A DNA stretch of 64,000 nt from Escherichia phage PSD2001 (OK254198.1); one strand, 5' to 3'. Positions 11,951-20,408 are shown, numbered from the stretch's first letter. Numbers and translations are program-made. The notes: generated by a model not told the origin, from the sequence alone.

Positions 11951-13825
11951 TTAATTGAGAAGGTGTACAAGTTTTTCCATAGACAAATCATAAGAGATTC
12001 TGTCATATTTTTTCAAAAGCGAATTTGATTCGTCTATCTGGTCATTTTCTAAGATAGAGCATTCAACGAGAATGTATTTACCCATCGAACCCATCATGCC
12101 AGCTGTAGCACCATAGACTTTATCAATCTTAAGCATTGTTCCACGTGGAAGAATAACTTCGGTTTCAACGGACCAGTTTGCCAGGTCACCAGGAATAACT
12201 ACCTTGATATTTTCTGCACCTTTGATAATCATACCAATCTTGATTGTAGGTTTCGCCGAACCAGTTGCACTTTTAATAGTTGCATCGATTGCCCCATCAT
12301 CGATATCACTCGATAATGCATTTGGGTCAAGGTTCGCAGCGGTGTGGCCCATACGACCGAAAATATTTGGCGCCAGAGATGTACTCGCAAACATAGGAAG
12401 ATACATCGTTTTATTTTTGATGGAATTAATTGCCATATCGGTTGGCATGACTTGAGCACGGTAGATGATAGTTCCTTTTGGAAGCTTAACACCGTTTTCA
12501 AATACTTTATCCATATCGGAAATCATTTTGATTTCGCTTTCTTTTGCGTCAGCTTTCCCTAGCAGGAAATTATTGATTGCAGTATATTTTCCGCGAGTAT
12601 ACGCCTTAATTGCTTCGGCCTGGTCTTCAGTTATTTCAGGGTTGTCGGAGATATGAAATAATGGTTGGATGGCCTTGGTGTAAATTTCATCTGCAATAAT
12701 ACGAATAGCTTCTTTAGTCTTATCTTCGCGCGCCCAGGTTCCCACAATGGAGTCGTCAAGCAACATATCAGCAACTCTACGCAATGTATCAACAGGATTC
12801 TTTGAGGCTCGCAGGACGTTCGAAAACTCACTTATTTTGTGTTCCATGCCGACTTCTTTAAGAGCATTAAGCACATCCATAGCTACACGAGTTTTTGTCT
12901 TATCTTCACCGACATCGCCTTGCGCGACTAAATCAAAATAATCTGCATATTCATCACCTGCTCGGTCGATTACTTTTATCGAAGCTTTAGCTATCTGACT
13001 TTCTCTGGCATCATCTGTTGAATGCACTGCGCTGGTAGTCGAGAGCTTCGTATAAATCTCTTTATGTTCTGGCGAGAATTTAGCAAGCCCAGTTGGTTCG
13101 TTCCCCGAATACAACGCATTAATAGCCGCGCGTTTAGAAAACTTGGTTTTAACAACAACTGCCTGGTCTGTACGTTTTTCTTCAACCTTTGCAATGGATG
13201 CTGCAATAGCTTCATTTTTGGTAACAGTTTCACCGCTGGCTTTATCCACATAAACATCACCAACTTTCGATTCCACTTTTGTGTATAGCTCAGTGTTGAT
13301 GCCTGGAATTCCGGCGATAGATTCAATCGGTTTGGATTTACGATAAATCAATACGTAAGTATGTTTACCTGTGTATTGATACATATCATCCAGGACTTTG
13401 AATTGGCCACCCGCGCGAGCCATAATAAGTCGAGCAAGAACACGCTGAATGGTTCGTTCTTGCCCCTTCATTTTACGGGTCGGGAAGCGGAACATAATTG
13501 CATCCATTTTCATCAGTTTTACTTGTTCGTAAACTACATCAAAAATGGATTTAATTGCTCCAATCGGGTTATCACCAAGACCACCTTTAAGAATAGCTGG
13601 AGTACCGTTTGAATTTAATGACATCAAAATAACGTGTGCATACTTATCGCCAGTTTTGACCTGTTTAATAGCATCGCCTTCGGATGCGTAAGACACCATA
13701 CGAGCAATAAGATTATCATTCCCCGGGACCTGGATATTCCAAATCTGTGGAACTTTTGACTTTGAAAGGTTAATGGCCGGGATATTAGATTCCCCTTCAA
13801 AAACCTCTGACAATAATTCGGTCAT
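11951..13825 (-). CDS. second Alt-type ADP-ribosyltransferase (paralog)
   Basis: 624 aa; same N-terminal KVPQIW...VPG...LIARM pattern and R-S-E core (YRAQ, FASTSL, VETEVILPRGT); ATG confirmed. Confidence 0.8.
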   Translation of the reverse strand: MTELLSEVFEGESNIPAINLSKSKVPQIWNIQVPGNDNLIARMVSYASEGDAIKQVKTGDKYAHVILMSLNSNGTPAILKGGLGDNPIGAIKSIFDVVYEQVKLMKMDAIMFRFPTRKMKGQERTIQRVLARLIMARAGGQFKVLDDMYQYTGKHTYVLIYRKSKPIESIAGIPGINTELYTKVESKVGDVYVDKASGETVTKNEAIAASIAKVEEKRTDQAVVVKTKFSKRAAINALYSGNEPTGLAKFSPEHKEIYTKLSTTSAVHSTDDARESQIAKASIKVIDRAGDEYADYFDLVAQGDVGEDKTKTRVAMDVLNALKEVGMEHKISEFSNVLRASKNPVDTLRRVADMLLDDSIVGTWAREDKTKEAIRIIADEIYTKAIQPLFHISDNPEITEDQAEAIKAYTRGKYTAINNFLLGKADAKESEIKMISDMDKVFENGVKLPKGTIIYRAQVMPTDMAINSIKNKTMYLPMFASTSLAPNIFGRMGHTAANLDPNALSSDIDDGAIDATIKSATGSAKPTIKIGMIIKGAENIKVVIPGDLANWSVETEVILPRGTMLKIDKVYGATAGMMGSMGKYILVECSILENDQIDESNSLLKKYDRISYDLSMEKLVHLLN

Positions 13826-13890: not shown

Positions 13891-15425
13891 AATCCAGTCT
13901 TTGACCAGTCGCCAAATACATCTTCGAATGTGTCTGCATGGTCTTTATCGAAACGGAACCCTTTGATAATCGGCAGGAACAATGCAACCGTATTATCTTT
14001 ACGAGTCTCGGAAGTCAACCAACCATTACATTCACAGTCAGCAATCATTCCAACCAATTCACCTTTACGAGCTTTAACCATTAAGGCTTCACGGTCCATT
14101 TCATGACGCTCATCAATCGGAATAGAAACCCATTTTTTGGTTTTCTTATCTTTAACTTGAGTTGTGTCTTTAAAACCAGAACCACAGTTATTTCTAATCT
14201 TACCACAAGAAGAACGAAGCACAACACCGCCAATCTTATTCGGGTCTTTATCGTGCTCGTAATATTCAATGATTTCCATTGCAATGTCAATTACTTCTTT
14301 GAACTTATACAGGTTCTTTGAGCGCTTGTTTTCCCAAATCGATGCCATGTTCTTAAGGATAATACCTTCAAGACCTTCATCCACATATTTCTTATAGATA
14401 ACCTTCGCTTCATCGAGATTGTTAACAACATGGTTTTCAATCAGAATCATGCGGTCGAAACCATGTAGCACCACGTTATCTGCAATCATCTTTTCCAGAA
14501 CAGCAAAACGCACATCATATTTCAACGGATTGAGAATCTTAACATCAGAATAGACTTCAATCAGTGGAACATAATCCCAAACCTGGAATTTCATGCAAGA
14601 AGCTTCTGTTGCAGAAATAGTTCCTTTTAATGATTTGTTTGCCAGACCATTTGAAAAGGTTCTTGATTCTGCGAATTCCGCGAATTCTTTTGCCTTACTA
14701 AGCTCAGGCATATCGTCAAAAAGGAAGCCCAAACCGTCATTCTGGGGAGCTACTTTCTGTTCATGGTATACTAACTCGCCGTCAATCAAAACGCCCTCAG
14801 GATGTCTCTCACGCGCTTCACGGGTAGCTTCAATCAATTCCTTTTTAAGGAGGTCAAGCTTGAGGTATTCGTTGCCAGCTCGGGATAACAATCGAACATC
14901 ATCCAACTCATCGCCACGAACTTCTGCAAAACACCGAGCGCCGTCGGCTTTCAATTGCGCAAAGGCCGGGAACTTAATGTTCTTGGCAATACCGGCTTCA
15001 TCATAGGAAGAAGCGAGCATCTGTGGTTGTTCAGGAATTAAACCTTTCCAAACCTTATTCGCAATTGATACGGATGCCCCGCATTCCAGGTCACGCATCA
15101 TCACACGGCGAAGAACTTCAACATCAGCCTTTTTACCATCTGCAATATAGCCAGATAATTCCTCGATTGCAGCATTACCTGTCAATTTGCGAGAGGCCAA
15201 TGTGAATTCGATAAAGTCAAGCATATCATCGATATTCAGCATACCAAAGCTTTGTGTCGTTGCCCCAGGTTTAGGCCATTTCTTAATATAGAACTGGATG
15301 CCTTTGGAATATGTCAAACGATACACGCGTTTAAGGGTTTCATTGTCAGAATACGATTCCAGGATAGCTTGTTTCTCTTTAGTGGAATCGGTTGCAGCAA
15401 TTTCATTTAAAATATCTAAAATCAT
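13884..15425 (-). CDS. 30: ATP-dependent DNA ligase gp30
   Basis: KADGARC adenylation motif; strong similarity to remembered T4 ligase; track start is GTG, trimmed to ATG MILDILNEIA. Confidence 0.9.
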   Translation of the reverse strand: MILDILNEIAATDSTKEKQAILESYSDNETLKRVYRLTYSKGIQFYIKKWPKPGATTQSFGMLNIDDMLDFIEFTLASRKLTGNAAIEELSGYIADGKKADVEVLRRVMMRDLECGASVSIANKVWKGLIPEQPQMLASSYDEAGIAKNIKFPAFAQLKADGARCFAEVRGDELDDVRLLSRAGNEYLKLDLLKKELIEATREARERHPEGVLIDGELVYHEQKVAPQNDGLGFLFDDMPELSKAKEFAEFAESRTFSNGLANKSLKGTISATEASCMKFQVWDYVPLIEVYSDVKILNPLKYDVRFAVLEKMIADNVVLHGFDRMILIENHVVNNLDEAKVIYKKYVDEGLEGIILKNMASIWENKRSKNLYKFKEVIDIAMEIIEYYEHDKDPNKIGGVVLRSSCGKIRNNCGSGFKDTTQVKDKKTKKWVSIPIDERHEMDREALMVKARKGELVGMIADCECNGWLTSETRKDNTVALFLPIIKGFRFDKDHADTFEDVFGDWSKTGLK

Positions 15426-15434
15426 AATCACCTC

Positions 15435-15716
15435 TTAGTCGTTGGCTCTATTATATGCCACATCTTCCAAAAGCAAATCCAGGCGTTTGTGATAAGTGAA
15501 CACAAATTTAGTCGCTCCATCTGGTTTCATTTTAGTCATGAAGTGAACATAGATAAATCCTTGCTCAACACATTCACGCCAAACCGGATGGTCTTTGGCC
15601 GGATTAATATCAAACGAGTAATCATGATTCACATGACGAATAAACTGATTAACATGGCCATAATCCATGGTAGTAGTAGGACCGTAATCAGAAATAGTAT
15701 GAACGACAAACATCAA
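15435..15716 (-). CDS. hypothetical protein (30.1 position)
   Basis: 93 aa track ORF, synteny only. Confidence 0.5.
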   Translation of the reverse strand: MMFVVHTISDYGPTTTMDYGHVNQFIRHVNHDYSFDINPAKDHPVWRECVEQGFIYVHFMTKMKPDGATKFVFTYHKRLDLLLEDVAYNRAND

Positions 15717-16528
15717 TTACCCCCTTGGCCGCCAGTCGGTTGATTGTACCAATATTCAATGCCAGTACCTACGCGTGGACCATATTGATATGGATACGCT
15801 GGATTATATCCAGGAGTCCATGGTTGTCCAGGGCGCCAGCCTTGTTGCAGAAGACGACGAGTTTCACGAAACAGCTCGCCCAGTTTACGGAGTTCATCAG
15901 GGGTGTATTCTGGCTTGACCGGTTCATCTTTGTGTTTCAGTTTAAGCTGTCCAGCAACATCGTCCCAGTTAAAAACTTTGGAAGCTGTTTTAGGAATAGC
16001 ATCACGTTCACCACGAGCCATCCAATAAACCGGGACTTCAAGGATTTCACTCGCATGGTCGCAATGGTGTGCAAGGTCATCAATATAACAAACGACATTA
16101 TATTTGTCTTTTGCCTTCTGAAATAACTCTTCTTTAGAGGCTGTATGACCACACATCATCACTTCTTTAAACGCCCCAGGGAACAAAGCATTCAGGTTGA
16201 ATTGACGATTCAGGCGAGCATCAATAGAATCACCCAGGGCTGTAACAGCCACAAAATCATATTGCTCTTTGAGGTTATTAATAACCCTTAACGCATCTGT
16301 GTAAGGAGACAAATAGCGAATAAAATCTGAACAGTTATATTTTTCAATTAACTGTGCACCCAACTCTTCATCGCAATTGAACAGTTTACCAGGGGTCACA
16401 AATTTTTCATCCTGAATCATTTTAAGGATATGTTCCAGGGGTAAATTATATTTTTGGGCGAAATAAGGCAAGCCAGACTGCCATGACAAACATACGCCAT
16501 CAATATCTGTTAAAATAACGGGTTTCAT
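15713..16528 (-). CDS. HAD-superfamily phosphatase-like protein with Pro/Gly/Tyr-rich tail
   Basis: N-terminal DIDGV (HAD motif I), later YIDD; C-terminal ~45 aa low-complexity PGQPWTPGYNPAYPYQYGP...GGQGGN. Confidence 0.6.
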   Translation of the reverse strand: MKPVILTDIDGVCLSWQSGLPYFAQKYNLPLEHILKMIQDEKFVTPGKLFNCDEELGAQLIEKYNCSDFIRYLSPYTDALRVINNLKEQYDFVAVTALGDSIDARLNRQFNLNALFPGAFKEVMMCGHTASKEELFQKAKDKYNVVCYIDDLAHHCDHASEILEVPVYWMARGERDAIPKTASKVFNWDDVAGQLKLKHKDEPVKPEYTPDELRKLGELFRETRRLLQQGWRPGQPWTPGYNPAYPYQYGPRVGTGIEYWYNQPTGGQGGN

Positions 16529-16983
16529 AATGCATCTCTCAATTGGTTAAGTATGTCAATAAATTCTTGTTCAGTCAATATTGTATCATGAACAGTAAGG
16601 TGACTTGCCATCGAATGCTTTAAAACTTTGCCCTTTGTGGCTTGTAATGCGTCGCGGAATCCTTTGTTTTGGAGCGCTGCTTCAAAATATGCATTTGTAT
16701 ACAACTCTTTCCATGATGTAGAGTATCTTGAAAAGGGAATTCCAAGCCAGAAAAGCGTCCCACGGTCCGCAGCTCTTGCATAAGCTCTTCCACTTTGCTG
16801 GGCGGCCAATCCGGACATCCCAAATATACGTTTTTGTTGTTCATTATTTCTCACCTTGCACCCTTGGAGGAAGCCTTCAAGACCTCCAAACTGGATACCC
16901 TCCATAACAAAAGGCCATTTAGCAAAGTTACTTAATGCACATGACGGCCATGGGAAATTGCTTCTGATTTCTAACTCAGACAT
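16525..16983 (-). CDS. NADAR (YbiA/DUF1768)-like protein
   Basis: Track ORF 16525..17130 trimmed to MSELEIRS; ALSNFAKWPF...GLEGFLQGCK resembles the NADAR signature as I recall E. coli YbiA. Confidence 0.55.
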   Translation of the reverse strand: MSELEIRSNFPWPSCALSNFAKWPFVMEGIQFGGLEGFLQGCKVRNNEQQKRIFGMSGLAAQQSGRAYARAADRGTLFWLGIPFSRYSTSWKELYTNAYFEAALQNKGFRDALQATKGKVLKHSMASHLTVHDTILTEQEFIDILNQLRDAL

Positions 16984-17188
16984 CTTTGACACTGATAATC
17001 TTGGTTGCATACCACATGCCATGGTCTGGCAATCTTTCTTTAATTGACCGTCCGCGATATGTTTTTCGCATAACAACAGTTTTAATAGCATCTTCATCGC
17101 AAGCATATGGCGGTGATAAATCAATAACACGATAAGTCACTTCAACCATTTCCAAGCCAAACAGCTTTTTAAATAATTTCTTAATCAT
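16976..17188 (-). CDS. 70 aa protein, tandem paralog A
   Basis: MIKKLFKKLFGLEMVEVTYRVIDLSP...IISVKDV; clearly homologous to the next ORF. Confidence 0.55.
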   Translation of the reverse strand: MIKKLFKKLFGLEMVEVTYRVIDLSPPYACDEDAIKTVVMRKTYRGRSIKERLPDHGMWYATKIISVKDV

Positions 17189-17197
17189 GAAGATTCC

Positions 17198-17410
17198 TTA
17201 AATATCTTTGACGCTGATAATCTCTACATCAGCCCAATGACCATAACCAGGTAGACGGTCTTTAATAGATAATCCACCGTCAGATTTCAGCATTTTAATT
17301 GTTTTAGTATATGGTTCAATATTTCGGGCCCATGGACTCACGTCTGTTATGCGATAAGTCACTTCAACCATTTCTGTTCCCAAAATTTTCTGAATCAGTT
17401 TCTTAAACAT
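17198..17410 (-). CDS. 70 aa protein, tandem paralog B
   Basis: MFKKLIQKILGTEMVEVTYRITDVSP...IISVKDI. Confidence 0.55.
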   Translation of the reverse strand: MFKKLIQKILGTEMVEVTYRITDVSPWARNIEPYTKTIKMLKSDGGLSIKDRLPGYGHWADVEIISVKDI

Positions 17411-17411
17411 A

Positions 17412-17606
17412 TTATCCTCGCCTTAAACATTTGATTACAGACAGTTCACCGTCCATGCGAACGTCTTCAGTTCCATCAACCCACAGGACTACATAGGCTT
17501 CTTTAATTTGGTTATTACCCAATTTAAAAGCAGGTAAGACCTTAGAAATCATTCCAGGAATACCCACACCTTTTAACTGGACAGTTTGCGATAAGAATAG
17601 TTGCAT
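17412..17606 (-). CDS. hypothetical protein
   Basis: 64 aa track ORF, tightly packed in operon. Confidence 0.45.
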   Translation of the reverse strand: MQLFLSQTVQLKGVGIPGMISKVLPAFKLGNNQIKEAYVVLWVDGTEDVRMDGELSVIKCLRRG

Positions 17607-17893
17607 TAGAACCTCATCTGGAAACCGTGTGATTTAACATTACCGCCATTAATATCAGACGAATTAATTTCACGTGCTGCAATTGGTTCAATATCAATGT
17701 CGCGTCTAAGCTTGGTGATTGCCAGAGTATCACGTCCATTAACAGTCCTGAATTCAACTGGACAAACTATATCAACATAGTTCTTAATGGATTCTTTAGT
17801 TGGTTCACGCCCAGCAGGAACATTAGGGCCTTTTTTAGAGAAAACAACTTCACAGAAATTTTTGCGTGTATCAAAGTAGGTAGTCATAAACAT
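17606..17893 (-). CDS. hypothetical protein
   Basis: Track ORF trimmed to MFMTTYF with GAGGA RBS; small hairpin GGGGC-gaaa-GCCCC just upstream. Confidence 0.5.
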   Translation of the reverse strand: MFMTTYFDTRKNFCEVVFSKKGPNVPAGREPTKESIKNYVDIVCPVEFRTVNGRDTLAITKLRRDIDIEPIAAREINSSDINGGNVKSHGFQMRF

Positions 17894-17929
17894 AGTATTT
17901 TCCTCAAGGGGCTTTCGCCCCATTTAAGA

Positions 17930-18295
17930 TTAGATATCAAATTCATTAAGAACTACATCAAAGATTGCTTCCAGGTGTTCAGGTTTTGCTTTGTTGCTCA
18001 GGATGTGACGAATCCAAGTTTTAACCAGAAGCTTGCGATTAACACCATTCCAGCAAGGATGAGTCCCTAAATCACGTTCACGGAAATCATCATCTAAAGC
18101 AATTTTAAAAGTTGAACCAGTCATAGTGATTGAAAGAGTGATACCATTTTCAAATCGCATATAAACGTAGTTAGGAGTCATATATTGTTCAATTTCACAT
18201 ACTGAACCGTTTTGATGTTTCCACAAGCAAATAACTTCAGAAGAACCTGGGATGCAGTTAGAAACATATTTGCGTTCAAAGTTGATGTAGTTCAT
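17930..18295 (-). CDS. hypothetical protein
   Basis: 121 aa; preceded by the conserved CTGGAGAATAAAATG initiation region. Confidence 0.55.
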   Translation of the reverse strand: MNYINFERKYVSNCIPGSSEVICLWKHQNGSVCEIEQYMTPNYVYMRFENGITLSITMTGSTFKIALDDDFRERDLGTHPCWNGVNRKLLVKTWIRHILSNKAKPEHLEAIFDVVLNEFDI

Positions 18296-18362
18296 TTTAT
18301 TCTCCAGTGTTTGGTTTGTTGGTACAGGTCTATAATATCATAACCTGTACCAAAGTAAACTG
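18296..18362 (-). promoter_or_regulatory. early promoter / stem-loop cassette
   Basis: Conserved leader, inverted repeat GGTACAGG...CCTGTACC with an AT-rich loop, GTAAAC -35-like element. Confidence 0.4.
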
Positions 18363-18364
18363 TT

Positions 18365-18733
18365 TTATGCGACTTTAATCCAATTATCTAAATTTAATTC
18401 ACCCTTAGCTTTCATTTTTTCAATCAAATCATCAGCAGTAGTGCGACCATTTTGATACCATGTAACATCTTCAGAATAACCAGTTTCTTCATCTTCATAG
18501 GTCTTACAACGAATCTTACCAGTTATGATAGTTTTCAGTTCGTAGGTATCACCAGTAAAAAAGTTTGTTACCATAATTTTCCAGGAGAAGTCATCAGAAG
18601 GACCTTCTGGAGTCATGCAAGAAACGAATTCAAATTGTTCTTTATACAAGTGCCATTGCATTTCTTTAGTTTCAATGGCTTTGTAACCGTCGTGGTCTTT
18701 ACCTTTGATGTATGAGTTAAGATTGATTTTCAT
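18365..18733 (-). CDS. hypothetical protein
   Basis: 122 aa; same conserved initiation region CTGGAGAATAAAATG. Confidence 0.55.
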   Translation of the reverse strand: MKINLNSYIKGKDHDGYKAIETKEMQWHLYKEQFEFVSCMTPEGPSDDFSWKIMVTNFFTGDTYELKTIITGKIRCKTYEDEETGYSEDVTWYQNGRTTADDLIEKMKAKGELNLDNWIKVA

Positions 18734-18806
18734 TTTATTCTCCAGTGTTTTATTGTGTAACTCAGTATGGAATCATTATGCACTGGACCAACCCTGTTGT
18801 AAACCC
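18734..18806 (-). promoter_or_regulatory. early promoter cassette with conserved leader
   Basis: Minus strand reads TTTACAA, 16 nt, CATAATG, then ATTCCATACTGAGTTAC leader and GGAG. Confidence 0.45.
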
Positions 18807-18814
18807 CTTTATGG

Positions 18815-18842
18815 AAAATAAAAAGGGACTCCGAAGAGTCCC
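18815..18842 (-). terminator. intrinsic terminator
   Basis: Hairpin GGGACTC-cgaa-GAGTCCC followed by a T-run on the minus strand. Confidence 0.65.
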
Positions 18843-18847
18843 TGAAC

Positions 18848-19009
18848 TTATGCTTTCGGCTTACCAAAGCAAGCTGCATCGGCACGCAATACCGCACGAG
18901 CACGAGCCTGAAGTTTATCAGTTACCTGATTGATTCGCTTGTTGGACGCACGCTTGTAACCAGCGCGTTTGGAGGAGCCATCAACAACTTTAACTTCTTT
19001 CTTAGCCAT
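18848..19009 (-). CDS. small basic protein (~53 aa)
   Basis: Hand-translated MAKKEVKVVDGSSKRAGYKRASNKRINQ...; followed by a terminator; below track size cut-off. Confidence 0.35.
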   Translation of the reverse strand: MAKKEVKVVDGSSKRAGYKRASNKRINQVTDKLQARARAVLRADAACFGKPKA

Positions 19010-19040
19010 ATTAAATTCTCTTTAAAATAGAATGCAGGAC

Positions 19041-19235
19041 TTATTGGCATTGCCTGCGCAAGCCCTCGAAGGGAACATTAGGTTTCGGATATTTAACGAC
19101 AGGATAACCATAAACCTCGTCATCATACCAACCACGGCTTAGACAGATAACCTTTTTCTGACGCGTGATAGTACAAAATACATTCAAGAGGTACACCACA
19201 AAATTATCGGGGTCTAAAACTATAATGATTCGCAA
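19041..19235 (-). CDS. questionable ORF (TTG start)
   Basis: Track ORF starts at TTG with no ATG or convincing RBS. Confidence 0.2.
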   Translation of the reverse strand: MRIIIVLDPDNFVVYLLNVFCTITRQKKVICLSRGWYDDEVYGYPVVKYPKPNVPFEGLRRQCQ

Positions 19236-19303
19236 ATCATTAATCAGATAATTCGGTGGCTCCTCGATTTTAGCTCACACTAAGGTAGCGAATCACCTAC
19301 AGC

Positions 19304-19558
19304 TTACTTCAGGGTTACGACAAAATGACGAACAGCTTTACGGGCAGCAGATGCCAGCGGCTTAGCAAATTTCAGTTCATCTTTTGCTTCGAGCACAGCG
19401 CGAAGGTCGGTTTGAATCGGGTTAAGATGTTTGAAATACTGCAGAATTTCCAGTGCTTCGGCTTCAACATCAATAGATGCGCCATAGTTTTCGTGACCGT
19501 TATTCCATGCAGTGCGTTGCAGTTCAAGAGCGTGTTGTAATTGTTTGTTTAAAGACAT
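19304..19558 (-). CDS. rIII: rIII-like lysis inhibition accessory protein (positional)
   Basis: Track ORF begins at TTG; trimmed to ATG MSLNKQ with GAGG RBS, giving ~84 aa (T4 rIII 82 aa); lies immediately downstream of gene 31 as in T4. Confidence 0.45.
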   Translation of the reverse strand: MSLNKQLQHALELQRTAWNNGHENYGASIDVEAEALEILQYFKHLNPIQTDLRAVLEAKDELKFAKPLASAARKAVRHFVVTLK

Positions 19559-19712
19559 TTTAGAAGCCTCAATATGAGGTGAATATTTGGTGGACACGTT
19601 CTTCTGAATTTCACTTCCTTTCGGCAAGTCTCTCAGTTGTAGTCCACCGTTTAGGATTAGCTAACCCCATACACCAGCAAAGCTCTGTATGACATCAACC
19701 AATCCATATTAT

Positions 19713-19720
19713 TATTTATA
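19713..19720 (-). promoter_or_regulatory. possible late promoter TATAAATA
   Basis: Minus-strand TATAAATA just after the gene 31 stop, ~155 nt upstream of the rIII-like ATG. Confidence 0.3.
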
Positions 19721-19729
19721 ACGCTAATT

Positions 19730-20053
19730 TTACTTATAAAGACAAGGAACAGCTTTATAATGACAGGTCACAAATTTCTGCTTAACTTCTTTAGCCTGCT
19801 TAAGTCCTAGAGCAACCAGAGGATGTGGAACGTTTGCAATCTTGCCAACCGGAAGAGGAGTCAAATCACCCACTTCACAGAAACCTTCAGGAACATCTGG
19901 ACCAACCGAAAATACTTCACACATCTCTGGGATTTCACCCTGATGGAGTTTTCCGATAACGATACCTGATGCCGTAGTTTCTTCATCACCAGCTTGCTTT
20001 GGCTCAGAAACCAAAATAATATATTCACCTACTGCTTTAATTGGTAATTCCAT
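19730..20053 (-). CDS. 31: co-chaperonin gp31 (GroES-like)
   Basis: [18 protein letters not shown]...[27 protein letters not shown] matches remembered T4 gp31; track start 20077, T4-equivalent ATG at 20053. Confidence 0.85.
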
Positions 20054-20108
20054 ATTTAATCCATGTTGTTTGGTCATGTATTAATAATAACACGCACCGT
20101 TTGAAGCA

Positions 20109-20408
20109 TTAAAGGACAAGCAGAGTCTCGGTCTGTAGCCCATTCACGGAAATCAATTTATTGAAACAGAATGAACGCCATTCATTAAGCTTGGTATCAA
20201 ATACCCGGATATAGCTAACTGGTTCTTTATTGACTTCTGGTCCAGGGGCCTGGATTTCTTTATACGGTAGCAGGTCCAGGTCGCGAGTACAAGTCATACG
20301 ACGGATGCTACCATCTGCTTTTTCAAACAGAACTTCGTGAAAACCAACAGACAAAATAGTCTTGACTTTTTCGCGAAGGCGAATTGTTTCTTGTTCAGTT
20401 AAAATCAT
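20109..20408 (-). CDS. hypothetical protein (31.1 position)
   Basis: 99 aa track ORF. Confidence 0.5.
   Translation of the reverse strand: MILTEQETIRLREKVKTILSVGFHEVLFEKADGSIRRMTCTRDLDLLPYKEIQAPGPEVNKEPVSYIRVFDTKLNEWRSFCFNKLISVNGLQTETLLVL

What the first reader, a model, noticed from the sequence alone, without database searches (positions are those of the whole stretch)
15435..19235. Accessory island between ligase and rIII with tandem paralogs and unknown small genes
This interval (the 30.x region in T4 terms) holds a HAD-like protein with a low-complexity tail, the NADAR-like protein, two tandem 70 aa paralogs, four unknown proteins of 64-122 aa, a ~53 aa basic protein and three promoter cassettes. 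Such regions in T-even phages are where host-takeover and anti-defence genes are typically found, and none of the small proteins here could be assigned a function from sequence.
Basis: inference. Interest (0 to 1): 0.45.

Follow-up and report, generated by a model that had tools for sequence, protein, structure and literature searches.

The report
T4-type 30.1–30.9 early gene block
This stretch is the well-known, dispensable early-gene block that T4-like phages carry between DNA ligase and rIII; one gene is a proven anti-defence enzyme (AdfN), its upstream neighbour is duplicated here, and the other genes still have no known function.

Summary
The interval is real and mostly as described, but it is not a novel island. 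It is the gene-for-gene orthologue of T4 genes 30.1–30.9 in a Gaprivervirus-like phage (93–96% nt identity to CJ20, TH44 and VR7). The "NADAR-like" protein is gp30.3 = AdfN (85% identical to T4, catalytic E36/K43/H123 present, full length). AdfN is the published ADP-ribosylglycohydrolase that reverses DarT1 DNA modification. The "HAD-like" protein is gp30.2. It has all four HAD motifs, a capped fold closest to 5'(3')-deoxyribonucleotidases, and a disordered P/G/Y-rich tail. The two 70-aa paralogs are diverged alleles of gp30.4 (53% identity, hypervariable centre), found in tandem in only 13 of 310 phage records with a match. Copy B is translationally coupled to adfN. In published T4 transposon data, all 30.x genes are dispensable. 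Besides adfN, 30.4 is the only other 30.x gene depleted on DarTG1, probably through polarity, possibly as a cofactor. The boundary ORF at 19041–19235 is spurious. It overlies a conserved structured RNA downstream of rIII. Gp30.1 and gp30.5–30.9 remain orphans. Verdict: a known block with a few modest leads.

The parts
15435..15713 (-). Gene 30.1, 92 aa, DUF3045. Its ATG overlaps the 30.2 stop (TGATG).
   Evidence: Pfam PF11243 E=6e-18; PHROG 2054; VR7 and T4 orthologues; 45% aa identity to T4.
15450..15475 (-). MotA-box-type middle-promoter-like site (TGCTTTTGG...TATAAT) inside the 3' end of 30.1, in front of ligase.
   Evidence: Pattern match. The window holds 27 such sites against 13.2 expected. 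Function is inferred only.
15713..16528 (-). Gene 30.2. A capped HAD phosphatase core (residues 1-200), a helix at 210-228, and a disordered P/G/Y/Q/W-rich tail ending in the VGTGIEYWYNQPT motif.
   Evidence: Motif residues D8, D10, K132, D150 and D151 are invariant and T96 is nearly invariant (>=90%) in 36 homologues. AF2 pLDDT 86, with the tail below 50. Foldseek best hit is cdN 2jao, E=8e-8. PHROG 420.
16525..16983 (-). Gene 30.3 = adfN, a NADAR ADP-ribosylglycohydrolase of 152 aa. Its ATG lies inside the 30.4B stop region (ATGTCTGA) and it has no own Shine-Dalgarno sequence.
   Evidence: PF08010 E=1e-63. 85% identical to T4 AdfN, with E36, K43 and H123 invariant. Literature. Best PDB profile hit is YbiA 2b3w.
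16620..16844 (-). Embedded +1-frame ORF 30.3' (74 aa) inside adfN.
   Evidence: Annotated in VR7 and T4. The frame is open in most relatives, but the start is lost or truncated in L006 and L005.
16976..17188 (-). Gene 30.4 copy B (70 aa), the diverged allele. It has its own SD (AAGGA) and is translationally coupled to adfN.
   Evidence: PHROG 2042 E=2e-26. 53% identical to copy A and 28% to T4. At >=90% identity it is found in only 14 phage records.
17198..17410 (-). Gene 30.4 copy A (70 aa), orthologue of VR7 gp30.4.
   Evidence: 94% identical to VR7 and 43% to T4. PHROG 2042 E=6e-34. AF2 model pLDDT 90, helix plus three strands.
17412..17606 (-). Gene 30.5, 64 aa, orphan.
   Evidence: PHROG 1690; 67% identical to T4.
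17606..17893 (-). Gene 30.6, 95 aa, orphan (Pfam Phage_T4_Y12K in newer releases).
   Evidence: PHROG 2153 matches residues 11-105 of the long ORF. The VR7 gene is 288 nt. 80% identical to T4. PF26902 on homologues.
17908..17921 (-). GGGGCGAAAGCCCC hairpin (GAAA loop) between the 30.7 stop and the 30.6 SD.
   Evidence: Read directly from the sequence.
17930..18295 (-). Gene 30.7, 121 aa, the most conserved orphan of the block.
   Evidence: PF06919 E=6e-52. 91% identical to T4. No meaningful PDB profile hit.
18291..18359 (-). Early-promoter cassette of 30.7: TTTACT-16-TATTAT (TG-extended) inside the inverted repeat GGTACAGG/CCTGTACC, followed by the 22-nt block AAACACTGGAGAATAAAATGAA.
   Evidence: conserved in T4.
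18365..18733 (-). Gene 30.8, 122 aa, acidic orphan.
   Evidence: PF06019 E=8e-44. 40% identical to T4. The Imm63 label in another record was not reproduced.
18729..18803 (-). Early-promoter cassette of 30.8: TTTACA-17-CATAAT, then the identical 22-nt RBS block.
18824..18843 (-). Intrinsic-terminator-like hairpin AGGGACTCTTCGGAGTCCCT plus a T-run, directly after 30.9.
   Evidence: conserved in T4.
18848..19009 (-). Gene 30.9, 53 aa, very basic, flanked by its own leader and terminator.
   Evidence: PHROG 1427 E=3e-26. 70% identical to T4, 100% to VR7.
19012..19127 (-). Nearly invariant non-coding block directly upstream of the 30.9 SD.
   Evidence: Alignment of 15 phages. Too invariant to show covariation. 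Function unknown.
19041..19235 (-).
   Evidence: Uncompensated 1-nt indels in L014, L008, L005 and L007. No family hit.
19188..19265 (-). Conserved structured RNA just downstream of the rIII stop: three stacked helices, an inner hairpin and an invariant internal loop.
   Evidence: 98% of cells paired. Four pairs with compensatory changes, reached by 0/500 shuffles. Slid controls gave 25-64% paired. Single copy. No Rfam match.

Best explanation
The interval is the orthologue of the bacteriophage T4 gene block 30.1-30.9. It is a tightly packed, minus-strand set of eleven real genes (plus the embedded ORF 30.3'). These genes are expressed early or at the middle stage and are dispensable on laboratory hosts.

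Shown: gene content, order and overlaps match T4 and VR7. gp30.3 meets the sequence criteria of AdfN.

Established elsewhere for T4: AdfN removes the ADP-ribose that the host toxin DarT1 puts on guanines of phage DNA, and so lets replication proceed.

Inferred:
- adfN has no ribosome-binding site of its own and starts inside the stop region of 30.4, so it is probably translated by coupling to 30.4.
- 30.4, adfN, 30.2 and 30.1 form one translationally coupled string.
- In this phage lineage, 30.4 is present as two old, diverged alleles in tandem.
- gp30.2 is an active HAD phosphatase acting on a small phosphorylated substrate, most likely a (deoxy)nucleotide. Its variable tail probably serves as a docking module.
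- The six remaining small proteins are T-even-restricted orphans, probably host-interaction factors needed only against particular hosts.
For: Synteny and orthology.

Family assignments: PF08010, PF06919, PF06019, PF11243 and the PHROGs hits.

AdfN: 85% identity to T4 AdfN, E36/K43/H123 conserved, full length of 152 aa. Function from PMC11825919, PMC11125620 and HIDEN-SEQ. In T4, 30.3 has log2FC -7.25 on DarTG1.

Dispensability of 30.1-30.9 in T4. They are neutral on CFE299.

Overlapping starts and stops and missing SD sequences were read from the sequence.

HAD: motif residues conserved (D8, D10, K132, D150, D151 invariant; T96 nearly invariant, >=90%), model pLDDT 86, structural neighbours are cdN/mdN. 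It is always adjacent to ligase in distant T4-like phages.

Early promoter cassettes conserved with T4.
Against: Nothing was tested in this phage itself.

Eight of the eleven proteins have no assigned activity. The 'host-interaction' label for them rests only on position, early-type promoters, dispensability and narrow distribution.

In T4 they gave no phenotype against CBASS, DarTG1 (except 30.3 and 30.4) or one clinical isolate.

gp30.2 matches no Pfam HAD or NT5C model. Its substrate is a guess from fold neighbours with TM about 0.5-0.7.

The promoter scan as such is no richer than in shuffled sequence.
Confidence: 0.85

Rival explanations
1. gp30.4 is a functional partner (potentiator, stabiliser or localiser) of AdfN. 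The tandem, diverged 30.4 alleles would then be an arms-race diversification of that partner, and the module would be 30.4(A/B) plus adfN rather than adfN alone.
For: In the T4 transposon data, 30.4 is the only 30.x gene besides adfN that is significantly depleted on DarTG1 (log2FC -1.79, adj p 0.014). It is neutral on CFE299 (+0.36) and on K-12.

Johannesman et al. found that AdfN works fully only during T-even infection and postulated an additional phage factor.

The gp30.4 family is confined to T-even phages: 3 clusters among 1.84 billion representatives.

It has a hypervariable centre between conserved ends and is the fastest-evolving gene of the block.

The 30.4-adfN overlap is conserved from T4 to this phage.
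Against: adfN has no SD of its own and its ATG lies 5 nt before the 30.4 stop. The transposon carries stop codons in all frames, so an insertion in 30.4 would reduce AdfN translation by itself. The effect is 30-fold weaker than for adfN.

The authors do not report 30.4 as a hit.

No interaction was tested.
Confidence: 0.2
2. One reading: a hyperplastic accessory island of recently acquired, lineage-specific genes.
For: At long range the content does change. Acinetobacter phage Acj9 keeps only 30.3 and 30.2, and Shewanella phage Thanatos-1 and another distant phage keep only 30.2, between rIII/cd and ligase.

There is local plasticity: the 30.4 duplication, an indel hot spot of 0, about 60 or about 200 nt in the rIII-30.9 spacer, and a natural 30.7-adfN deletion fusion.
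Against: Within Tevenvirinae the block is gene-for-gene syntenic and is present in about 900 phage records. 30.7, 30.3 and 30.6 are 80-91% identical to T4, more than ligase. GC content is not deviant.
Confidence: 0.1
3. gp30.2 is a nucleic-acid end-healing 3'-phosphatase working with the adjacent DNA ligase, like the HAD domain of polynucleotide kinase-phosphatase, rather than a nucleotide phosphatase.
For: Its position immediately upstream of ligase is conserved in very distant T4-like phages. There is a weak PHROG 415 'polynucleotide kinase' match, E=4.5e-4.
Against: The model has a large helical cap between motifs I and II. By general knowledge of HAD enzymes, such caps go with small substrates. 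The best structural and sequence neighbours are 5'(3')-deoxyribonucleotidases, and these share the extended motif DxDGVxxxW/FxSGL. T4 insertions in 30.2 are neutral while ligase is essential.
Confidence: 0.2
4. The 64-aa ORF at 19041-19235 (or the 37-aa ORF at 19022-19135) is a real small gene.
For: The DNA here is extremely conserved. One public record annotates small ORFs in this spacer.
Against: One-nucleotide indels that are not compensated occur in L014, L008, L005 and L007. There is no codon-position pattern, no SD and no family hit. The 5' part folds into an RNA with compensatory changes and G-U pairs.
Confidence: 0.03

Closest known systems
Bacteriophage T4 genes 30.1-30.9 (NC_000866, 127205-130540)
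   Same: Same genes in the same order and orientation between ligase (30) and rIII. Same overlapping starts and stops, same early promoter cassettes upstream of 30.7 and 30.8, and same terminator after 30.9.
   Different: This phage has two 30.4 genes instead of one, lacks alt.1, and has about 60 nt extra in the rIII-30.9 spacer. Protein identities range from 28% to 91%.
AdfN (T4 gp30.3), anti-DarT factor NADAR; Johannesman et al. 2025, PMC11825919
   Same: 152 aa, 85% identical, catalytic E36 and K43, the phage-type His (H123), and an intact C-terminal helix.
   Different: 23 substitutions. Activity has not been measured for this allele.
DarG1-type NADAR antitoxins and E. coli YbiA (PDB 2b3w)
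   Same: Same superfamily and the same catalytic Glu/Lys motif region (literature).
   Different: No N-terminal extension. His replaces Asp/Glu in the last strand. It is an orphan, with no adjacent toxin. Sequence similarity is only marginal (E=0.34).
5'(3')-deoxyribonucleotidases cdN/mdN (PDB 2jao, 2i7d, 1mh9)
   Same: Capped HAD fold, motif I DxDGV followed by an aromatic residue and SGL, Foldseek E about 1e-7, TM (target) 0.6-0.7.
   Different: 16-17% identity. No Pfam NT5C match. An extra helix and a 45-70 aa disordered tail. Substrate unknown.
Tandem 30.4 pair in published relatives (Escherichia phages CJ20, TH44, WG01)
   Same: Same two-copy arrangement. Copy B is 97-100% identical.
   Different: None of substance. 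The arrangement is not new to sequence databases, only undescribed.
Promoter-early stem-loop (PeSL) regulatory cassettes of T4-type phages (recalled from Arbiol et al. 2010, not read here)
   Same: An early promoter embedded in or next to a stem-loop and followed by a repeated RBS block, upstream of 30.7 and 30.8.
   Different: Membership was not tested against the published consensus. Here they sit at conserved, not shuffled, positions.

Membership tests
AdfN / phage gp30.3 NADAR (PF08010) | Match to the family profile above the curated cut-off | tested here: met
   213 bits against a cut-off of 36, E=1.3e-63.
AdfN / phage gp30.3 NADAR (PF08010) | Catalytic Glu36 and Lys43 (mutated in T4 AdfN by Johannesman et al.) | tested here: met
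   Both are invariant in the window/T4/VR7 alignment. Residues named.
AdfN / phage gp30.3 NADAR (PF08010) | Histidine in the last strand, the mark of phage NADARs | tested here: met
   H123 is conserved and is the only His in T4 AdfN. Feature named.
AdfN / phage gp30.3 NADAR (PF08010) | Intact C-terminal helix (its loss inactivates RB69 AdfN) | tested here: met
   152 aa, aligned to the last residue of T4 AdfN.
AdfN / phage gp30.3 NADAR (PF08010) | Removal of ADP-ribose from guanine in DNA; protection against DarTG1 | not testable with these tools
   Shown only for the T4 allele.
HAD superfamily phosphatase | Motifs I (DxD), II (T/S), III (K) and IV (DD) | tested here: met
   D8, D10, K132, D150 and D151 are invariant and T96 is nearly invariant (>=90%) in 36 diverse homologues.
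HAD superfamily phosphatase | Rossmannoid core with a cap domain | tested here: met
   AF2 pLDDT above 90 over residues 1-190. 95 PDB matches with E<=1e-3; all 50 best listed matches are HAD-fold proteins.
HAD superfamily phosphatase | Match to a curated HAD sequence profile | tested here: not met
   No Pfam or NCBIfam hit even at E<=10. Only PHROG 420, of unknown function.
NT5C-type 5'(3')-deoxyribonucleotidase | Profile membership and nucleotide-binding cap residues | tested here: inconclusive
   Best PDB hit by sequence (E=0.3-0.4) and by fold, and a shared DxDGVxxxW/FxSGL motif. But there is no PF06941 match and identity is 16-17%.
gp30.4 family (PHROG 2042; Pfam PF26911 Phage_T4_Y12I) | Both tandem copies match the family | tested here: met
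   E=6e-34 for copy A and 2e-26 for copy B. Homologues carry PF26911.
Imm63 immunity protein (label on gp30.8 in record PQ341120) | Match to the Imm63 profile | tested here: not met
   Only PF06019 and a sub-threshold VbhA hit at E<=10.
Known RNA families (Rfam 15) for the rIII-30.9 spacer | Covariance-model match | tested here: not met
   No match at E<=1 over 15000-20200.

The most novel reading that the evidence does not exclude
gp30.4 is the T-even-specific factor that AdfN needs for full activity. This lineage would then keep two diverged gp30.4 alleles in tandem, directly coupled to adfN, as a diversified two-part counter-defence module against DNA ADP-ribosylating toxins. Separately, the conserved 78-nt structured RNA after rIII could be an undescribed T-even regulatory or processing element.
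Probability: 0.2. Interest if true: 0.6.

Novelty: already known. Interest (0 to 1): 0.3.

Why it matters
As a region, it matters little. It is the standard T4 30.x block, and its one understood gene (adfN) was published in 2024-2025.

Three by-products could be useful to people working on phage counter-defence:
- A concrete and cheap candidate (gp30.4) for the unidentified factor that makes AdfN work only in T-even infections. It is backed by an unremarked signal in public transposon data and by natural allele diversification.
- gp30.2 is a catalytically intact, ligase-linked HAD phosphatase conserved across very distant T4-like phages. That makes it one of the most widespread T4-like genes still without a function.
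- A conserved structured RNA with compensatory changes lies in a spacer that annotators sometimes fill with spurious ORFs.

Tried and rejected
- Coding potential of the rIII-30.9 spacer was rejected: uncompensated frameshifts occur in relatives.
- A tRNA or tRNA-like origin of the spacer inserts was rejected: ARAGORN found none.
- Rfam over the whole interval gave nothing. The whole-spacer MFE is not unusual, z=-0.65.
- Block b upstream of 30.9 is too invariant for a covariation test.
- PADLOC and NCBIfam gave nothing meaningful.
- PDB sequence searches with single proteins, with a concatenate of all small proteins, and with profiles of 30.4 and 30.7 gave only chance-level hits.
- The labels in other GenBank records are not reproducible or are plainly transferred errors. 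These include Imm63, DUF4222, 1,4-alpha-glucan branching enzyme, baseplate hub and valyl-tRNA synthetase modifier.
- dN/dS between the two 30.4 copies cannot be computed because synonymous sites are saturated, pS=0.79.
- The covariance model of the RNA element found no second copy in the window or in distant T4-like loci.
- One literature search on bare gene numbers returned only unrelated papers.
- The T4 genome review (PMC150520) is not held.
- Only two structure predictions were allowed, so 30.1, 30.5, 30.6, 30.7, 30.8 and 30.9 were not modelled.

Full report
IDENTITY OF THE REGION. All real genes in 13.8-21.6 kb of the window lie on the minus strand. The interval matches about 900 T4-like phage records. 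The best matches are Escherichia phages CJ20, TH44, P896 and the Gaprivervirus VR7/VR20/VR25/SP18 group, at 93-96% nucleotide identity. The annotated VR7 and T4 records show the same order: alt, 30 (ligase), 30.1, 30.2, 30.3 (with embedded 30.3'), 30.4, 30.5, 30.6, 30.7, 30.8, 30.9, rIII, 31. Every ORF in the interval falls in the corresponding Pfam or PHROG family. The interval is therefore the orthologue of the T4 30.1-30.9 block.

CORRECTED GENE MAP. The coordinates are:
- 30.1: 15435-15713 (92 aa)
- 30.2: 15713-16528 (271 aa)
- 30.3: 16525-16983 (152 aa; the 201-aa maximal ORF is an over-extension)
- 30.3': 16620-16844
- 30.4B: 16976-17188
- 30.4A: 17198-17410
- 30.5: 17412-17606
- 30.6: 17606-17893 (95 aa, not 105)
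- 30.7: 17930-18295
- 30.8: 18365-18733
- 30.9: 18848-19009
Starts follow the VR7 and T4 gene lengths, the profile match ranges and the Shine-Dalgarno sequences read.

CONSERVATION AND DISPENSABILITY. Amino-acid identity to T4 is 91% for 30.7, 85% for 30.3, 80% for 30.6, 70% for 30.9, 67% for 30.5, 66-74% for 30.2, 45% for 30.1, 43% for 30.4A, 40% for 30.8 and 28% for 30.4B. Ligase is 71% identical.

In the T4 transposon study HIDEN-SEQ (bioRxiv 10.1101/2025.11.20.689424), all of 30.1-30.9 are classed as non-essential, with 95-100% of sites hit. Genes 30 and 31 are essential. The 30.x genes are neutral on a CBASS host and on the uropathogenic isolate CFE299.

In distant T4-like phages only part of the block survives. 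Acj9 keeps 30.3 and 30.2. Shewanella phage Thanatos-1 and another phage keep only 30.2. In each case 30.2 lies directly upstream of ligase, with at most one small ORF (the 30.1 position) in between. So 'dispensable accessory genes' is right. 'Variable island' is wrong at the T-even scale.

THE NADAR PROTEIN IS ADFN. Johannesman et al. (Nat Commun 2025, PMC11825919) mapped DarTG1 resistance of T-even phages to gene 30.3 and renamed it adfN. They showed that it is necessary and sufficient, and that the purified protein removes ADP-ribose from DarT1-modified DNA. E36A and K43A weaken it. RB69 is sensitive because a frameshift removes the last helix. Phage NADARs carry a His in the last strand (PMC11125620). 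The window protein is 85% identical to T4 AdfN, has the same length, and keeps E36, K43 and H123. Its best, though weak, PDB profile hit is the NADAR prototype YbiA over the catalytic motif. Its function is therefore known by close orthology. It was not tested here.

THE TANDEM PARALOGS ARE TWO ALLELES OF 30.4. The repeat period is 222 nt. Copy A is 94% identical to the single VR7 gp30.4. Copy B is 53% identical to A and 28% to T4. Synonymous sites between A and B are saturated (pS 0.79). Nucleotide identity is 64-71% in the flanks and 43% in the centre. This is therefore an old pair, or two alleles brought side by side, and not a recent duplication.

Across 34 family members the ends are conserved (MFKKLIQKLLGTEMVEVTYRVTD... 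and ...SIEDRLPGYGHWADVEIISVKDV). Residues about 24-47 fall into several unrelated allele classes. B-type sequences at >=90% identity occur in 14 of 310 phage records, and 13 records hold two copies. Metagenomic contigs carry a single chimeric gene made of A residues 1-20 plus B residues 21-70. That is what recombination between the two copies would leave.

A LINK BETWEEN 30.4 AND ADFN. In the window and in T4 alike, the adfN ATG lies 5 nt before the 30.4 stop (ATGTCTGA), and no Shine-Dalgarno sequence precedes it. The overlap chain continues downstream: adfN to 30.2 by ATGA, and 30.2 to 30.1 by TGATG.

In the HIDEN-SEQ DarTG1 sheet, 30.3 has log2FC -7.25. 30.4 is the only other gene of the block that is significantly depleted (-1.79, p 1e-4, adjusted 0.014). 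30.5 is -3.0 but not significant, and 30.1, 30.2 and 30.6-30.9 are flat. The transposon has no terminator but carries stop codons in all frames. Loss of translational coupling into adfN is therefore the simplest reading, and I put it at about 65-70%.

The alternative is that gp30.4 is the extra T-even factor that Johannesman et al. postulated, because AdfN does not rescue uninfected cells and only partly rescues non-T-even phages. This alternative is not excluded. I put it at about 20%. In this phage, copy B has its own SD (AAGGA) and has taken the coupled position.

GP30.2. A search of 5.8 billion proteins found 119 homologue clusters, all from T4-like phages of many hosts where a source is named. 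In 36 diverse members, D8, D10 (DIDGV), K132 and D150-D151 are invariant and T96 is nearly invariant (>=90%). W16, R108, N111 and R172 are also invariant. The AF2 model has pLDDT above 90 for residues 1-190. It shows a Rossmannoid core with a four-helix cap between motifs I and II, a helix at 210-228, and a disordered tail.

The best PDB neighbours by fold are cytosolic and mitochondrial 5'(3')-deoxyribonucleotidases and other capped HAD enzymes, with E about 1e-7. The only PDB sequence hit is mouse cdN, with a shared DxDGVxxx(W/F)xSGL motif. No curated HAD profile matches.

About half of the homologue clusters (57 of 119) carry C-terminal extensions. These are heterogeneous and rich in P/W/Y. 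Several recurring end motifs occur, and this phage has the (V/I)GTGIEY(L/W)xxQPT type.

My reading is a small-molecule, most likely nucleotide, phosphatase with a docking tail. The rival is a ligase-associated end-healing 3'-phosphatase. Insertions in T4 30.2 are neutral in every condition I read.

OTHER SMALL PROTEINS. gp30.1 (DUF3045), gp30.5, gp30.6, gp30.7, gp30.8 and gp30.9 match only their own orphan families. They have no PDB relatives by sequence and no PADLOC or NCBIfam match. gp30.7 stands out because it is 91% identical to T4 yet dispensable. gp30.9 is very basic. It sits between a nearly invariant leader and its own terminator.

REGULATORY SIGNALS. Two early-type promoters, upstream of 30.8 and 30.7, are conserved with T4. 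Each is followed by an identical 22-nt block, AAACACTGGAGAATAAAATGAA, that holds the SD and the start codon. The 30.7 promoter lies inside the inverted repeat GGTACAGG/CCTGTACC. A terminator-like hairpin follows 30.9. A MotA-box-type site lies at 15450-15475 in front of ligase. A late-promoter TATAAATA lies at 19713-19720 in front of rIII. These are consensus matches supported by conservation. They are not mapped transcripts.

THE RIII-30.9 SPACER. An alignment of 15 phages shows two nearly invariant blocks separated by an indel hot spot: 0 nt in T4, about 60 nt here, about 200 nt in EAWsc9 and VR5. It also shows single-base indels that shift every frame in some phages. The spacer is therefore non-coding.

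The first block (19265-19188) folds into three stacked helices with an inner hairpin (UAAUGAUU-UGCG-AAUCAUUA) and an invariant internal loop. On 15 distinct sequences, 98% of cells pair. Four pairs show compensatory double changes, a level that 0 of 500 shuffles reach. Slid registers give 25-64% pairing. Three G-U pairs place the structure on the sense strand. The evidence rests on few independent events. The element is single-copy and matches no Rfam family. Its role is unknown; it could be a 3' stabiliser, a processing site or a regulatory element.

VERDICT. The thing itself is already known. It is the T4 30.x block, and its NADAR gene is the published counter-defence factor AdfN. Three points are worth keeping:
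- the heteroallelic tandem 30.4 pair coupled to adfN, together with the unremarked DarTG1 signal for 30.4 in public data;
- the widely conserved, ligase-linked HAD phosphatase that has no known function;
- the structured RNA after rIII.

Noticed in passing
window 19188-19265 (minus strand): A 78-nt conserved RNA structure directly after the rIII stop codon. Four base pairs show compensatory changes, three G-U pairs are sense-strand only, and a GGAG motif lies in the outer helix. It is single-copy and has no Rfam family.
   Followed up: partly
window 19012-19127 (minus strand): A 115-nt non-coding block just upstream of the 30.9 ribosome-binding site that is almost invariant from T4 to this phage. 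It is far more conserved than the flanking genes. No structure or promoter could be assigned.
   Followed up: partly
window about 19128-19187; L003 and L007: An indel hot spot between the two conserved spacer blocks: 0 nt in T4, about 60 nt here and in VR7, about 200 nt of GC-richer sequence in EAWsc9 and VR5. ARAGORN finds no tRNA in it.
   Followed up: partly
protein P0163 (ENA metagenome, 6 member sequences): A natural deletion that fuses gp30.7 residues 1-77 to AdfN residues 76-152 at an RDLGT/DRGT microhomology. It removes 30.4-30.6 and the AdfN catalytic half.
   Followed up: no
L019-L021 (metagenomic contigs), protein P0151: Phages with a single 30.4 gene that is a chimera of copy A (residues 1-20) and copy B (21-70). 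This is the expected collapse product of the tandem pair.
   Followed up: partly
window 16620-16844 (minus strand): The embedded +1-frame ORF 30.3' inside adfN stays open over 76 codons in most relatives. It loses its ATG (GTG in L006) or is truncated (L005) in some.
   Followed up: partly
window 11951-13825 (minus strand): The Alt ADP-ribosyltransferase next to ligase is only 33% identical to T4 Alt, whereas neighbouring genes are 70-90% identical.
   Followed up: no
L003 (PQ341120) and L004 (PP693301) annotations: Public records label these orphan genes with unrelated names: baseplate hub, head vertex protein, valyl-tRNA synthetase modifier, DNA ligase for adfN, and 1,4-alpha-glucan branching enzyme for gp30.9. 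In PQ341120 adfN is not annotated at all.
   Followed up: yes
T4 HIDEN-SEQ table, DarTG1 sheet: Gene 30.4 is significantly depleted on DarTG1 (log2FC -1.79, adjusted p 0.014). The preprint's text does not discuss this.
   Followed up: partly
window 20084-20108 and 19713-19720 (minus strand): A MotA-box-type site lies in front of gene 31 and a late-promoter TATAAATA lies in front of rIII. MotA-type patterns are twice as frequent in the window as in shuffles (27 against 13.2).
   Followed up: no
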